This document shows positions 10,757-14,408 of a stretch of 14,408 bases of DNA, one piece after another. Numbering within the stretch: position 1 is the stretch's first letter; every line of letters starts with the position of its first letter. The notes beneath the pieces are model-generated. The model did not search any database and was not told where the DNA came from. It worked only from the letters and a program-made list of their open reading frames with translations. The translations under genes and the position numbers were made by a program. Origin of the DNA: a virus (taxonomy: Duplodnaviria > Heunggongvirae > Uroviricota > Caudoviricetes); IMG/VR virus record IMGVR_UViG_2606217117_000008; one strand, given 5' to 3'.

Positions 10757-11500
10757 ATGACACAGACTGAATCAGCGATTCTGGCGCATGCCCGGCGGTG
10801 TGCGCCTGCGGAGTCGTGCGGCTTCGTGATAAGCACGCCGGAGGGGGAGTGGTATATCCCTTGTGTGAATATTTCTGCAGAGCCGGAGGCGTATTTTCGT
10901 ATCGCACCGGAAGACTGGCTGCGGGCAGAGATGCAGGGGGAGATTGTGGCACTGGTCCACAGTCATCCCGGTGGGCTGCCCTGGCTGAGCGAGGCTGACC
11001 GGCGGCTGCAGATAAAAAGCGCACTGCCCTGGTGGCTGGTCTGCCGGGGTGACATTCACAAATTCCGCTGTGTGCCACATCTGACAGGACGGCGCTTTGA
11101 GCACGGGGTGACGGACTGTTACACGCTGTTCCGGGATGCTTATCATCTGGCGGGGACTGAGATGCCGGATTTTCATCGCGAGGATGACTGGTGGCGCAAC
11201 GGTCAGAACCTTTACCTGGACAATATGGCGGTCACCGGCTTTTACCGGGTGCCCCTGTCCTCTGCACAGGCGGGCGATATTCTGCTGTGCTGCTTTGGTG
11301 CTTCGGTACCGAACCATGCCGCCATTTACTGCGGCAACGGTGAGCTGCTTCACCATCTGCCTGAACAACTGAGTAAACGGGAGAGGTATTCCGAAAAATG
11401 GCAACGACGAACGCATTCAGTCTGGCGTCACCGCCACTGGCACGCATCTGCCTTCACGGGGATTTACAACGATTTGGCCGCCGCCTCAGCCTGTATGTGA
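10757..11500 (+). CDS. K: Tail tip assembly protein K (JAB/MPN-like plus NlpC/P60-like regions), 247 aa
   Basis: ATG at 10757, 10 nt after the L stop and in frame with track ORF 10496..11500; the upstream track start lies inside L and is rejected. Conserved motifs …CAPAESCGFVISTPEGE.YIPCVNISAEPE…EIVALVHSHPGG…WWLVCRG… and position between L and I. The 3' end overlaps I in another frame. Confidence 0.85.
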   Translation: MTQTESAILAHARRCAPAESCGFVISTPEGEWYIPCVNISAEPEAYFRIAPEDWLRAEMQGEIVALVHSHPGGLPWLSEADRRLQIKSALPWWLVCRGDIHKFRCVPHLTGRRFEHGVTDCYTLFRDAYHLAGTEMPDFHREDDWWRNGQNLYLDNMAVTGFYRVPLSSAQAGDILLCCFGASVPNHAAIYCGNGELLHHLPEQLSKRERYSEKWQRRTHSVWRHRHWHASAFTGIYNDLAAASACM

Positions 11501-12078
11501 ACACGGCAGCGGAAGCCATTCGCGCCCTGTCGATGCAGATGCCGGGCTTTCGCCGTCAGATGAACGAAGGCTGGTACCAGATACGTATTGCCGGTTATGA
11601 CACGGCACCGGAGGCGGTGTACGCCCGTCTTCACGAACAGCTGGGTGAGGGAACGGTCATCCACATTGTGCCGCGACTGGCCGGGGCCGGAAAGGGTGGA
11701 CTGCAGATTGTGCTGGGGGCGGCAGCCATCGTGGGCTCTTTCTTCACTGCCGGGGCATCAATGGCGTTATGGGGTTCAGCCCTGGCAGCCGGTGGTTTTT
11801 CTGCCACCACGATGCTGTTTTCACTTGGAGCCAGCATGATTCTGGGCGGTGTGGCCCAGATGCTGGCCCCGAAGGCAAAAACACCGGATTACCGCGCAAC
11901 GGATAACGGCAGACAGAACACGTACTTTTCCTCACTGGATAACATGATTGCCCAGGGGAACCCGATGCCGGTGCCTTACGGGGAAATGCTGGTTGGCTCC
12001 CGCCGTATATCCCAGGACATCAGCACCCGTGATGAAGGCGGGGGCGGAAAGGTCGTGGTTATCGGGCGGCAGGGGTAA
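11398..12078 (+). CDS. I: Tail tip assembly protein I, 226 aa
   Basis: Matches lambda gpI (…LASP..ARICL.GDLQRFGRR…AEAIRAL..Q.P.FR……IHIVPR.AGA..GG.QIVLGAAAI.GSFFTAGA…LFSLGASM.LGGVAQMLAPKA.TP…TDNG.QNTYFSSLDNM.AQGN…VVVIGR). Confidence 0.9.
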   Translation: MATTNAFSLASPPLARICLHGDLQRFGRRLSLYVNTAAEAIRALSMQMPGFRRQMNEGWYQIRIAGYDTAPEAVYARLHEQLGEGTVIHIVPRLAGAGKGGLQIVLGAAAIVGSFFTAGASMALWGSALAAGGFSATTMLFSLGASMILGGVAQMLAPKAKTPDYRATDNGRQNTYFSSLDNMIAQGNPMPVPYGEMLVGSRRISQDISTRDEGGGGKVVVIGRQG

Positions 12079-12085
12079 AAAGAAT

Positions 12086-12123
12086 AAAAAAATCCCGCAG
12101 TGATCGCGGACAGGAACTGCGGG
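12086..12123 (-). terminator. Hairpin plus U7 tract acting as an intrinsic terminator for - strand transcription
   Basis: Stem CCCGCAG/CTGCGGG (12094-12100 with 12117-12123) and a 16-nt loop. On the - strand it is followed by A then TTTTTTT (12092..12086). On the + strand no T-tract follows, so the signal is specific to the - strand. Confidence 0.4.
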
Positions 12124-12182
12124 AGAGTTACGAAGATTAAGTGTAAGGAATTATTCTTATATCACGACAAAAAAATTAACGC
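12086..12182 (-). ncRNA. Candidate ~95-nt small RNA on the - strand in the I-J intergenic insert (prediction only)
   Basis: On the - strand: -35 TTCACA (12216..12211), 16-bp spacer, -10 TATAAT (12194..12189), predicted start ~12182. About 55 nt of AU-rich sequence is followed by a hairpin (CCCGCAG, 16-nt loop, CTGCGGG; 12123..12094) and A+UUUUUUU (12093..12086). No plausible ORF in the transcript. Confidence 0.3.
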
Positions 12183-12188
12183 AGAGAA

Positions 12189-12216
12189 ATTATACGCGCC
12201 ACAGTCAGTTTGTGAA
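12189..12216 (-). promoter_or_regulatory. Near-consensus sigma70 promoter on the - strand (TTCACA, 16 bp, TATAAT), transcribing away from J toward I
   Basis: + strand attata at 12189-12194 is TATAAT on the - strand; + strand tgtgaa at 12211-12216 is TTCACA on the - strand. 16-bp spacer, in an AT-rich intergenic insert. Confidence 0.45.
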
Positions 12217-12287
12217 AATGTGAAGATATTCAGAATTTTTATGCCATTACCGGTTTTAACCAACAGGATTATCGGTGGGCATGAAAG

Positions 12288-12324
12288 AAAACCCCGGTAT
12301 CTGCTGATACCGGGGTTTCTCTTT
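12288..12324. terminator. Strong perfect hairpin (AAACCCCGGTATC tgct GATACCGGGGTTT) flanked by U-rich tracts on both strands; possible bidirectional terminator
   Basis: 13-bp perfect inverted repeat with a 4-nt loop. The + strand follows it with TTTCTCTTT and the - strand with TTTTCTTTC. Lies inside the AT-rich I-J insert, ~100 bp upstream of the J start. Confidence 0.45.
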
Positions 12325-12421
12325 AGCATGGCAGAAATGTGTTTCATGCTTTTCGGGCGAAGGATATCCGACTTCTGTACGGAATGGCAAGTGGCGGTTA
12401 ATTTATTCAGGGGAAGGCTGT

Positions 12422-14408
12422 ATGGGAAAAGGTGGCGGTAAGGCACACACGCCTCGTGAGGCGAAGGATAATCTCAAATCCACGCAGATGATGAGTGTGA
12501 TTGATGCGATTGGTGAGGGACCGATAGAAGGCCCGGTGAAGGGACTGCAGAGTATCCTGGTGAACAAAACCCCGCTGACGGACACGGACGGTAATCCCGT
12601 GATACACGGTGTGACCGCGGTCTGGCGTGCCGGGGAGCAGGAGCAGACACCACCGGAAGGCTTTGAGTCCTCCGGAGCTGAAACCGGACTGGGCGTGGAA
12701 GTGACGAAGGCAAAACCGGTGACGCGCACCATTACGTCCGCGAACATTGACCGCCTGCGGGTTACCTTCGGGGTGCAGTCACTGGTGGAGACCACCTCAA
12801 AGGGTGACCGTAACCCGGCATCCGTCCGCCTGCTGATTCAGTTACAGCGTAACGGTAACTGGGTGACAGAAAAGGACGTCACCATTAACGGCAAGACCAC
12901 CTCACAGTTCCTGGCCTCGGTGATTCTGGATAATCTGCCTCCCCGGCCCTTTAACATCCGGATGGTCAGGGAGACGGCGGACAGCACCACGGACCAGCTG
13001 CAGAATAAGACGCTGTGGTCGTCATACACCGAAATCATCGATGTGAAACAGTGCTACCCGAACACGGCCATTGTGGGGCTGCAGGTGGATGCGGAGCAGT
13101 TCGGCGGCCAGCAGATGACGGTGAACTACCATATCCGCGGTCGCATCATCCAGGTGCCGTCAAACTATGACCCGGAAAAACGCACGTACAGTGGTATCTG
13201 GGACGGCAGCCTGAAACCGGCATACAGCAACAACCCGGCCTGGTGTCTGTGGGACATGCTGACTCACCCGCGCTACGGCATGGGAAAACGTCTGGGGGCG
13301 GCGGATGTGGACAAGTGGGCGCTGTATGCCATCGGGCAGTACTGCGACCAGACGGTCCCGGATGGTTTCGGGGGGACCGAGCCGCGGATGACCTTTAATG
13401 CGTACCTGGCACAACAGCGTAAGGCGTGGGACGTTCTCAGTGATTTCTGCTCGGCGATGCGCTGTATGCCGGTATGGAACGGCCAGACGCTGACGTTCGT
13501 TCAGGACCGTCCGTCGGATGTGGTGTGGCCGTACACCAACAGCGATGTGGTGGTGGATGATAACGGCGTGGGGTTCCGCTACAGCTTCAGTGCCCTGAAG
13601 GACCGGCACACGGCGGTGGAGGTGAATTACACCGACCCGCAGAACGGCTGGCAGACCTCCACGGAACTGGTGGAAGACCCGGAAGCCATACTGCGCTACG
13701 GACGCAACCTGCTGAAGATGGACGCGTTCGGCTGTACCAGCCGCGGTCAGGCCCACCGTGCCGGACTGTGGGTGATAAAGACCGAACTGCTGGAAACGCA
13801 GACGGTGGATTTCACGCTCGGGTCTCAGGGGCTGCGGCACACACCCGGTGACATCATTGAAATCTGTGATAACGACTATGCCGGGACCCTGACCGGCGGA
13901 CGTGTCCTGTCCATTGATGCTGCCACCCGCACCCTGACGCTGGACCGTGAAGTGACACTTCCGGAGACCGGTGCCGCCACGGTGAACCTGATTAACGGCA
14001 GCGGTAAGCCGGTGAGTGTGGACATCACCGAACACCCCGCGCCGGACCGGATACAGGTCAGTACCCTGCCTGATGGTGTGGAGACATACGGGGTGTGGGG
14101 ACTCTCCCTGCCGTCACTGCGCCGTCGCCTGTTCCGCTGTGTCTCCGTCCGGGAAAACACGGACGGCACCTTTGCCATCACGGCGGTGCAGCACGTACCG
14201 GAAAAAGAAGCCATCGTGGATAACGGTGCCCGCTTTGAGCCGCAGTCAGGTTCCCTGAACAGCGTCATCCCACCGGCAGTGCAGCACCTGACGGTGGAGG
14301 TGAGCGCAGCTGACGGACAGTATCTGGCGCAGGCGAAATGGGACACGCCGCGGGTGGTGAAGGGTGTGCGCTTCAGTCTGCGCCTGACCAGTGGTAAGGG
14401 AACGGATG
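12422..14408 (+). CDS. J: Tail tip/host-specificity protein J, N-terminal ~662 codons (gene continues past the right edge)
   Basis: ATG at 12422 preceded by GGGGAAGG. MGKGGGKAHTPREAKDNLKSTQMMSVIDAIGEGPIEGPV… and downstream segments (…WSSYTEIIDVKQCYPNTA…SNNPAWCLWDMLTHPRYGMGKRLGAADVDKWALY…DAFGCTSRGQAHRAGLW.IKTELLETQTVDF…) are colinear with lambda gpJ. No stop before 14408. Confidence 0.95.
   Translation, partial: MGKGGGKAHTPREAKDNLKSTQMMSVIDAIGEGPIEGPVKGLQSILVNKTPLTDTDGNPVIHGVTAVWRAGEQEQTPPEGFESSGAETGLGVEVTKAKPVTRTITSANIDRLRVTFGVQSLVETTSKGDRNPASVRLLIQLQRNGNWVTEKDVTINGKTTSQFLASVILDNLPPRPFNIRMVRETADSTTDQLQNKTLWSSYTEIIDVKQCYPNTAIVGLQVDAEQFGGQQMTVNYHIRGRIIQVPSNYDPEKRTYSGIWDGSLKPAYSNNPAWCLWDMLTHPRYGMGKRLGAADVDKWALYAIGQYCDQTVPDGFGGTEPRMTFNAYLAQQRKAWDVLSDFCSAMRCMPVWNGQTLTFVQDRPSDVVWPYTNSDVVVDDNGVGFRYSFSALKDRHTAVEVNYTDPQNGWQTSTELVEDPEAILRYGRNLLKMDAFGCTSRGQAHRAGLWVIKTELLETQTVDFTLGSQGLRHTPGDIIEICDNDYAGTLTGGRVLSIDAATRTLTLDREVTLPETGAATVNLINGSGKPVSVDITEHPAPDRIQVSTLPDGVETYGVWGLSLPSLRRRLFRCVSVRENTDGTFAITAVQHVPEKEAIVDNGARFEPQSGSLNSVIPPAVQHLTVEVSAADGQYLAQAKWDTPRVVKGVRFSLRLTSGKGTD

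What the first reader, a model, noticed from the sequence alone, without database searches (positions are those of the whole stretch)
12079..12421. AT-rich 343-bp insert between I and J with its own promoter and terminators: candidate small-RNA moron
In lambda, I and J are nearly adjacent; here they are separated by an AT-rich segment with no convincing ORF. On the - strand it carries a near-consensus sigma70 promoter (TTCACA, 16 bp, TATAAT at 12216..12189) about 60 nt upstream of a hairpin (12123..12094) followed by A+U7. That predicts a ~95-nt AU-rich transcript convergent with the late operon and expressible from a repressed prophage. A promoter-plus-terminator unit inserted between conserved phage genes is the classic moron architecture. 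It may resemble the Hfq-dependent prophage sRNAs reported in pathogenic E. coli, but I cannot verify identity to any named sRNA from sequence alone.
Basis: partly seen in the sequence, partly recalled or inferred. Interest (0 to 1): 0.72.

Follow-up and report, generated by a model that had tools for sequence, protein, structure and literature searches.

The report
Prophage small RNA gene, PasB family
The spacer between tail genes I and J holds a small regulatory RNA gene of a family already shown by experiment in pathogenic E. coli (PasB in EPEC, EcOnc22-24 in EHEC), here as a divergent version that the papers I could search do not describe.

Summary
Window 12079-12421 is a 343-bp spacer between lambda-type genes I and J; lambda itself has 60 bp there. 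On the - strand it carries an 11/12 sigma70 promoter (12216..12189) and an intrinsic terminator (hairpin 12124..12093, then U7 at 12092..12086). This predicts a 97-nt, largely unstructured transcript.

The unit is homologous in position, promoter region and terminator to pasB of EPEC E2348/69, an 83-nt, Hfq-dependent sRNA validated by Northern blot and RIL-seq. It is equally homologous to EcOnc22/23/24 of EHEC Sakai (~85 nt, destabilised without hfq). I linked EcOnc22-24 to this locus through their published Northern probe.

The window carries a different allele. Its body is only about 63% identical to PasB, while conserved motifs are kept: an (AAN)3 tract, UCCUU and UUAAUCUUC. This allele occurs in 800 of 5,426 complete E. 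coli genomes, including CFT073. A word-28 BLAST with PasB, as used in the 2026 Pas survey, would miss it.

The kind of element is therefore known, and this is a new member of it. The family has at least four divergent alleles inside 89-100% conserved flanks. Expression of this particular allele remains untested.

The parts
11398..12078 (+). Tail assembly gene I. Its stop codon lies 8 nt from the sRNA 3' end, and the two are convergent.
   Evidence: PF06805 at E 6e-17 and phrog_32/4244. Annotated 'tail assembly protein' in RefSeq hits.
12086..12182 (-). Predicted primary transcript of the PasB/EcOnc22-family sRNA, 'W' allele, 97 nt. The position equivalent to the mapped PasB 5' end is 12168, which would give 83 nt.
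   Evidence: Alignment to E2348/69 pasB. The fold shows a terminator hairpin plus an open body. The TSS is inferred from the -10 element.
12086..12124 (-). Intrinsic terminator and Hfq-binding 3' module: stem UCCCGCAGU/ACUGCGGGA followed by U7.
   Evidence: inverted repeat I4. It is present in all 56 aligned rows, partly because the search pattern required it. The published PasB probe matches 12092-12111 at 20/23 positions.
12132..12158 (-). Single-stranded core: (AAN)3 tract at 12158..12150, UCCUU at 12149..12145, and UUAAUCUUC at 12140..12132. This is the candidate Hfq distal-face site and seed.
   Evidence: These are the conserved columns in alignment A2 and in the consensus of 45 unique transcripts. 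52 of 56 rows have at least 3 ARN triplets.
12189..12216 (-). Sigma70-type promoter: -35 TTCACA at 12216..12211, a 16-nt spacer, and -10 TATAAT at 12194..12189.
   Evidence: The same promoter is found in E2348/69.
12219..12245 (-). Conserved upstream module AAA-WTTCTGA-N6-TCACATTT. TCTGA-N6-TCACA matches the CRP core at 9/10, centred near -44.5.
   Evidence: with near-invariant columns in A2. A role for CRP is inference only.
12241..12322 (+). Two strong hairpins (12241-12282 and 12285-12322, the latter with a 13-bp perfect stem) between the sRNA promoter and J. They are not part of the sRNA.
   Evidence: I1; -42.6 kcal/mol, z -7. The segment is at least 99% identical in 1,442 of 1,451 records.
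12422..14408 (+). Tail tip gene J, 5' part; it runs off the window.
   Evidence: phrog_31/1727, PF24801, PF13550, PF24421.

Best explanation
Window 12086-12216 (- strand) is a gene for a small, Hfq-dependent, trans-acting regulatory RNA of the PasB/EcOnc22-24 family. It is a moron inserted between tail genes I and J of a lambdoid prophage.

It is probably transcribed in the lysogen from its own sigma70 promoter, against the direction of the late operon, and stops at an intrinsic terminator 8 nt from the I stop codon. The RNA is 97 nt as made and may be trimmed to about 83 nt. It consists of an unstructured A/U- and C/U-rich body followed by a terminator hairpin and U7.

The U tail, and probably the (AAN)3 tract, would bind Hfq. 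The conserved UCCUU and UUAAUCUUC stretches would pair with purine-rich (Shine-Dalgarno-like) sites in host and prophage mRNAs.

Shown here: homology of position, promoter and terminator to RNAs that others validated by experiment. Inferred: expression, Hfq binding and seed for this allele, and its target set, which should differ from PasB because the body is only about 63% identical.
For: - **Anatomy.** The promoter (11/12) and terminator lie on the - strand.
- **PasB homology.** E2348/69 pasB maps to the same place: 6 nt after the I stop, on the antisense strand, with the same promoter and the same terminator. The PasB Northern probe matches window 12092-12111 at 20/23.
- **PasB experiments.** Northern band of 83 nt, log2FC -6.8 and -2.4 in the hfq deletion, 37 RIL-seq interactions, a 7-nt U tract.
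- **EcOnc22-24.** The Sakai Sp15/Sp14/Sp11 I-J spacers carry a third allele on the antisense strand. The published EcOnc22/23/24 probe matches that allele over 23 exact nt. These RNAs are ~85 nt and destabilised in the hfq deletion.
- **Family alignment.** 56 rows share the upstream module, GNGUUA plus a U run at the 5' end, an AAN tract, UCCUU-like and UUAAUCUUC motifs, and the terminator. The only consensus structure is the terminator.
- **Prevalence and context.** The window allele is found in 800 of 5,426 genomes, including CFT073. Every close I-J junction sampled carries such a unit. The spacer contains no credible ORF.
Against: - There is no expression, Hfq-binding or target data for this allele in anything I could search.
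- No Rfam model exists for the family, so there is no independent covariance-model support.
- The body is 63.5% identical to PasB with indels, so function cannot simply be transferred.
- The mapped PasB 5' end lies 14-16 nt downstream of the TSS predicted from the -10 element.
- The terminator stem and AUCUUC were required by my search pattern, so their invariance in alignment A2 is partly by construction.
- A duplex scan against the ribosome-binding sites of the phage's own late genes gave nothing above shuffled controls.
Confidence: 0.85

Rival explanations
1. The RNA works mainly in cis. It is perfectly complementary to the I-J intercistronic stretch of the late mRNA. Pairing would then trigger cleavage or alter coupling between I and J expression; conversely, late transcription would titrate the sRNA at induction.
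For: The gene lies wholly inside the late transcription unit on the opposite strand, 8 nt from the I stop. Its position is fixed in every allele class while the sequence drifts. All spacer types also keep a hairpin in late-operon sense just upstream of J.
Against: PasB forms RIL-seq chimeras with many core and accessory mRNAs in uninduced cells, where late mRNA is scarce. The conserved short motifs inside a variable body look like a trans seed. A cis role and a trans role are not mutually exclusive.
Confidence: 0.1
2. In this allele the unit is an unexpressed or functionless relic. The promoter- and terminator-like sequences persist only because they are linked to conserved tail genes.
For: There are no expression data for the W allele. 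The flanks are 89-100% identical between prophages, so linkage alone preserves sequence. The body evolves fast, as neutral DNA would.
Against: The promoter is consensus-grade (11/12), better than the Sakai allele, which has no consensus match yet is seen on Northern blot. Short motifs and the terminator stay intact across four allele classes, which is not expected under neutrality. This allele is also the commonest in the IMG/VR sample.
Confidence: 0.04
3. The spacer encodes a small protein (the 113-aa + ORF 12100..12441, the 94-aa - ORF 12162..12446, or the 66-77-aa '+' CDS annotated in some phage records) rather than an RNA.
For: ORFs exist mechanically. Two phage records annotate a 'hypothetical protein' or 'tail fiber protein' just upstream of J.
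Against: None has a Pfam or PHROG match. The ORFs span modules that are replaced by non-homologous sequence in the 240-bp spacers. RefSeq annotates nothing there. The transcript itself holds only a 2-codon GUG frame (sequence).
Confidence: 0.01

Closest known systems
PasB sRNA of EPEC O127:H6 E2348/69 (Pearl Mizrahi et al. 2021, PMC8550237; Zhu, Shabalina & Storz 2026, bioRxiv 10.64898/2026.05.13.724894)
   Same: Same locus (I-J spacer of a lambdoid prophage), same strand (antisense to the late operon), and the same promoter with its upstream module. The terminator is the same (CCCGCAG...CUGCGGGAU7) and the 3' end corresponds exactly. Both share the AAN tract and the UCCUU and AUCUUC motifs.
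   Different: The body is 63.5% identical, with three indels, and the RNAs are 73% identical overall. The longest shared word is 25 nt. A megablast search with PasB returns only genomes at 90% identity or more (956 genomes); the window allele defines a largely separate set of 800 genomes. The published PasB variants differ by 'a few nucleotides'. The window spacer also has an extra 176-bp hairpin module that E2348/69 lacks.
EcOnc22/23/24 of EHEC O157:H7 Sakai, prophages Sp15, Sp14 and Sp11 (Tree et al. 2014, PMC4104026)
   Same: Same I-J position and strand, same terminator and core motifs, ~85 nt, Hfq-dependent.
   Different: This is a third allele, about 63% identical in the body. Its promoter has no consensus -35/-10 match, and its spacer is 240 bp. 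Neither Pas paper mentions EcOnc22, so the link between these names is my inference from the probe sequence and the locus.
Anti-sRNAs AgvB and AsxR (Rfam RF02702, RF02703)
   Same: Short Hfq-binding sRNAs encoded in lambdoid prophage morons. They have a conserved 3' part, a variable 5' part and ARN motifs.
   Different: They lie downstream of PR', next to the lysis genes, not between I and J. Their sequence is unrelated and there is no Rfam hit in the window. They are 51-60 nt long.
The sodC (Cu,Zn superoxide dismutase) moron at the same junction
   Same: It occupies the I-J spacer on the strand opposite to the late operon and adjoins a W-like sRNA body.
   Different: It is a protein-coding moron. 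Where it is present, the sRNA's own promoter is replaced, so the sRNA body sits in the sodC 3' UTR. The window does not carry it.

Membership tests
PasB / EcOnc22-24 prophage sRNA family | Encoded in the I-J intergenic spacer of a lambdoid prophage, antisense to the late operon, with its 3' end a few nt from the I stop codon | tested here: met
   In the window the I stop is at 12078 and the RNA 3' end at 12086. In E2348/69 the I stop is at 1466255 and the PasB 3' end at 1466261. The Sakai spacers are arranged the same way.
PasB / EcOnc22-24 prophage sRNA family | Homologous promoter region, including the conserved upstream TTCTGA-N6-TCACATTT module | tested here: met
   The same 11/12 promoter is found in E2348/69.
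PasB / EcOnc22-24 prophage sRNA family | Intrinsic terminator CCCGCAG-loop-CUGCGGGA followed by at least 6 U | tested here: met
PasB / EcOnc22-24 prophage sRNA family | RNA body close to the published PasB sequence (published variants differ by a few nucleotides) | tested here: not met
   63.5% identity in the body and 73% overall. A megablast search with PasB does not retrieve this allele class.
PasB / EcOnc22-24 prophage sRNA family | Shared single-stranded core motifs (AAN tract, UCCUU-like, UUAAUCUUC) upstream of the terminator | tested here: met
   AUCUUC was part of the IMG/VR search pattern, but it is also present in the E, W and S alleles, which were found without that pattern.
PasB / EcOnc22-24 prophage sRNA family | Expressed as an ~83-85-nt RNA whose abundance depends on Hfq | not testable with these tools
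   This is shown only for the E2348/69 and Sakai alleles.
Moron (extra gene with its own promoter and terminator between conserved phage genes) | Extra DNA relative to the ancestral gene order, atypical composition, and own transcription signals | tested here: met
   343 bp against 60 bp in lambda. GC is 0.30-0.40 against about 0.6.
AgvB/AsxR anti-sRNA family | Location 3' of PR', and the conserved 3' region ...UGCCCGAACCCAYUCGGGCAUUUU | tested here: not met
   The location differs, the sequence is absent, and there is no RF02702/RF02703 hit.
Class II CRP-dependent promoter | TGTGA-N6-TCACA site centred near -41.5 | tested here: inconclusive
   There is a 9/10 core match at 12219-12234, conserved across alleles. 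Its centre is about -44.5 from an inferred TSS. Three such matches occur in the window against 0.47 expected. Higher PasB levels in overnight LB than in DMEM are compatible with CRP control but not specific to it.

The most novel reading that the evidence does not exclude
The I-J junction sRNA locus may be a hypervariable 'seed cassette'. At least four old allele classes keep the promoter module, an AAN tract, a short CU-rich core and the terminator, while differing by about 37% in the body. The classes are E (PasB), S (EcOnc22-24), C, and W as in this window; W is the one in CFT073 and other ExPEC. They sit inside 89-100% identical tail genes. Related prophages would then deliver different target specificities, possibly under common (CRP-like) control. 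The W allele would be an uncharacterised regulator in extraintestinal pathogenic E. coli.
Probability: 0.35. Interest if true: 0.5.

Novelty: new member of a known kind. Interest (0 to 1): 0.3.

Why it matters
The kind of element is known and has been validated by experiment, so the main result is that the finding is real and already explained. Three smaller points are new relative to the papers I could read.

- PasB (EPEC, 2021) and EcOnc22/23/24 (EHEC, 2014) are alleles of one locus.
- The family is much larger than the surveyed PasB set. In 5,426 complete E. coli genomes the copy counts are about 999 E-type, 985 W-type, 1,246 S-type and 1,559 C-type.
- The sRNA body is the most divergent 100 nt in an otherwise 89-100% identical tail-gene block.

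The W allele is carried by reference uropathogens such as CFT073, where no function is known. Allele-swap experiments could test how seed turnover in prophage sRNAs rewires host regulation.

Tried and rejected
- **Rfam.** There was no hit at gathering thresholds in the whole window. The sub-threshold hits in 11900-12600 are chance-level and mostly driven by the 12285-12322 hairpin.
- **AgvB/AsxR identity.** Rejected: these lie at the PR' moron site and have unrelated sequences.
- **Coding potential.** The spacer ORFs have no Pfam or PHROG match.
- **Mapping EcOnc22-24 by coordinates.** The published peaks fall about 140 nt from the sRNA in NC_002695.2. Calibration with AgvB1 gave +140. EcOnc42 allowed +119 to +218. 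EcOnc51/PasA was ambiguous. I settled the question with the Northern probe sequence instead.
- **Other EcOnc peaks.** EcOnc35, EcOnc49 and EcOnc54 were checked as possible further family members; none is at an I-J junction. No EcOnc peak is listed for the Sakai Sp12 I-J spacer.
- **Trans pairing within the phage.** An RNAduplex scan of the sRNA body against 16 late-gene start regions gave no energy better than shuffled sRNAs.
- **Other genera.** A pattern scan over one genome per species found true matches only in Escherichia albertii; the remaining hits are chance.
- **Literature on this allele.** Searches for a UPEC or CFT073 description found nothing.

Full report
**Observation**

The window shows gene I (11398-12078; PF06805, tail PHROGs) and gene J (ATG at 12422; GpJ domains) separated by 343 bp. 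In phage lambda the same two genes are 60 bp apart. GC drops to 0.30-0.40 over 12100-12250 against about 0.6 in the flanks, while the right part of the spacer is 0.47-0.50.

On the - strand the consensus scan finds TTCACA-16-TATAAT at 12216..12189, an 11/12 match. It also finds a terminator whose full stem is 12124..12116 / 12101..12093, followed by U7 at 12092..12086. A start about 7 nt after the -10 element gives a 97-nt RNA (12182..12086). This RNA folds only into the terminator hairpin, leaving an open A/U- and C/U-rich body. The ORFs in the spacer have no family match.

**Identity**

Rfam 15 has no match. My first lead, the prophage anti-sRNAs AgvB and AsxR, failed because those lie downstream of PR'.

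The literature search led to the Pas sRNAs of EPEC E2348/69. Table S6 of Pearl Mizrahi et al. places PasB on the minus strand at NC_011601.1 1466343->1466261. It is 83 nt, in prophage PP6, with Northern probe AATCCCGCAGTGATCGCGGAGCT. In that genome the RNA lies in the 240-bp spacer between the tail assembly gene (I) and gpJ. Aligning it with the window shows the same terminator, the same 3' end (window 12086), the same 11/12 promoter and the same upstream sequence. The probe matches window 12092-12111 at 20 of 23 positions.

PasB was confirmed by Northern blot. It is strongly reduced without Hfq (log2FC -6.8 and -2.4). It has 37 RIL-seq interactions and a 7-nt U tract. It is more abundant in overnight static LB than in DMEM.

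**A second, older name for the same locus**

In EHEC Sakai the I-J spacers of prophages Sp15, Sp14 and Sp11 are 240 bp. On the strand opposite to the late operon they carry another version of the same unit.

Tree et al. 2014 list Hfq-CRAC peaks EcOnc22, EcOnc23 and EcOnc24 in exactly these three prophages, with a ~85-nt Northern band that is destabilised in the hfq deletion. Their coordinates refer to an older genome version and sit about 140 nt away in NC_002695.2. Calibration was consistent for AgvB1 and EcOnc42 but ambiguous for EcOnc51.

I therefore used the published EcOnc22/23/24 probe. Its reverse complement matches the Sakai allele over 23 exact nucleotides, GTTAATCTTCATCGTTCTCTCCC. 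Neither Pas paper mentions EcOnc22. The equation PasB family = EcOnc22-24 family is thus my inference from the probe and the locus.

**This allele is different**

The window RNA is 73% identical to PasB overall and 63.5% in the body, with indels. The longest shared word is 25 nt. A megablast search with PasB finds 956 of 5,426 complete E. coli genomes, all at 90% identity or more. The window allele finds a largely separate set of 800 genomes, including CFT073 and many human extraintestinal isolates.

The 2026 survey by Zhu, Shabalina and Storz used blastn with word size 28 and reports PasB variants that differ by a few nucleotides. By construction, that search cannot seed on this allele.

Two further classes exist. 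The Sakai 'S' type is in 542 genomes with 1,246 copies. A 'C' type is in 469 genomes with 1,559 copies, up to 8 per genome. A pattern scan of IMG/VR gave at least 120 contigs and 53 distinct 145-nt alleles, and the window allele was the commonest. Among one-genome-per-species references, only E. albertii had true matches.

**What is conserved**

In the 56-row alignment the nearly invariant parts are:
- the upstream module AAA-WTTCTGA-N6-TCACATTT;
- GNGUUA and a U run at the 5' end of the transcript;
- an AAN-rich tract;
- a UCCUU-like motif and UUAAUCUUC;
- the terminator.

The -35/spacer region and the rest of the body vary, and the only consensus structure is the terminator. AUCUUC and the stem were required by my pattern, but they are also present in the E, W and S alleles, which were found independently.

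Between the window and Sakai Sp12 the sRNA body is the least conserved 100-nt bin (70%) in 3.4 kb, where other bins are 82-100% and most are above 93%. This pattern fits a trans-acting Hfq sRNA with U tail, AAN tract and a short CU-rich seed, whose specificity region is exchanged or diverges quickly. The seed assignment is inference. [quoted passage not shown]

**Regulation (hypothesis)**

TCTGA-N6-TCACA at 12219-12234 is a 9/10 match to the CRP core and is conserved in all promoter-bearing alleles. PasB behaves opposite to the CRP-repressed Spot 42 across the two EPEC growth conditions. However, the site centre (about -44.5) is off the canonical -41.5, and such matches are not rare in the window (3 found against 0.47 expected). 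I rate this as a lead only.

**Rest of the spacer**

The segment 12240-12421 is not part of the sRNA. It is at least 99% identical in 1,442 of 1,451 records, about as conserved as the adjoining J 5' end. On the + strand it folds into two strong hairpins (z -7).

The non-homologous 240-bp spacers carry, at the same relative place, a terminator-like hairpin in late-operon sense. Lambda's 60-bp gap also holds a hairpin, though the scan does not flag it as a terminator. Its function is unknown. Possible roles are stopping non-antiterminated late-sense transcription before J, or stabilising mRNA.

In some prophages a sodC gene sits on the sRNA strand directly upstream of a W-like sRNA body and replaces its promoter. 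This shows that the I-J junction is a moron hotspot.

**Verdict**

The finding is a real feature. The window carries an undescribed allele of it, so I classify it as a new member of a known kind, of modest interest. Expression, Hfq dependence and targets of this allele remain untested.

Noticed in passing
window 12240-12421 (hairpins 12241-12282 and 12285-12322): A 182-bp module between the sRNA promoter and J is at least 99% identical in 1,442 of 1,451 E. coli records. It folds into two very stable hairpins on the + strand (z -7). Non-homologous 240-bp spacers (E2348/69, Sakai Sp15) have a terminator-like hairpin in late-operon sense at the same place, and lambda's 60-bp gap also has a hairpin. 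Function unknown.
   Followed up: partly
L004 1-582 (E. coli O145:H28 RM13516); IMG/VR loci with I-J spacers of 851-903 bp: A sodC (superoxide dismutase) moron sits on the sRNA strand directly upstream of a W-like sRNA body and replaces the sRNA promoter. The sRNA sequence would then lie in the sodC 3' UTR.
   Followed up: partly
window 12219-12234: TCTGA-N6-TCACA is a 9/10 match to the CRP core, conserved in all promoter-bearing alleles and centred near -44.5 of the sRNA promoter. The PasB expression pattern (high in overnight LB, low in DMEM) is compatible with it.
   Followed up: partly
window 12086-12103 and 12170-12187: The 5' end of the predicted RNA (UCUCUGCGUUAAUUUUUU) resembles its own 3' end (UCACUGCGGGAUUUUUUU); this is direct repeat D1, 78% identical. 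The 5' CUGCG could compete with the 3' arm of the terminator for CGCAG.
   Followed up: no
window 12390..12361 (- strand) with hairpin 12322..12285: A weak - strand promoter (TTGCCA-18-TATCCT, 9/12) lies upstream of the - strand face of the big hairpin (tail UUUUCUUUC). Together they could give a ~75-nt RNA antisense to the J leader. There is no expression evidence, and no Hfq-CRAC peak is listed for the equivalent Sakai Sp12 spacer.
   Followed up: partly
L011 1192-1431, L013, L014 (Sakai Sp15/Sp14/Sp11 I-J spacers): The Sakai allele has no sigma70 consensus match in the scan, yet EcOnc22 is detected on Northern blot. Coordinates in Tree et al. 2014 Table S2 are offset by about 140 nt from NC_002695.2 at these loci.
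   Followed up: yes
window 12100-12199 versus L015 (Sakai Sp12): The sRNA body is the least conserved 100-nt bin (70%) in a 3.4-kb comparison whose other bins are 82-100% identical. Recombinant or intermediate alleles exist (for example L007).
   Followed up: partly
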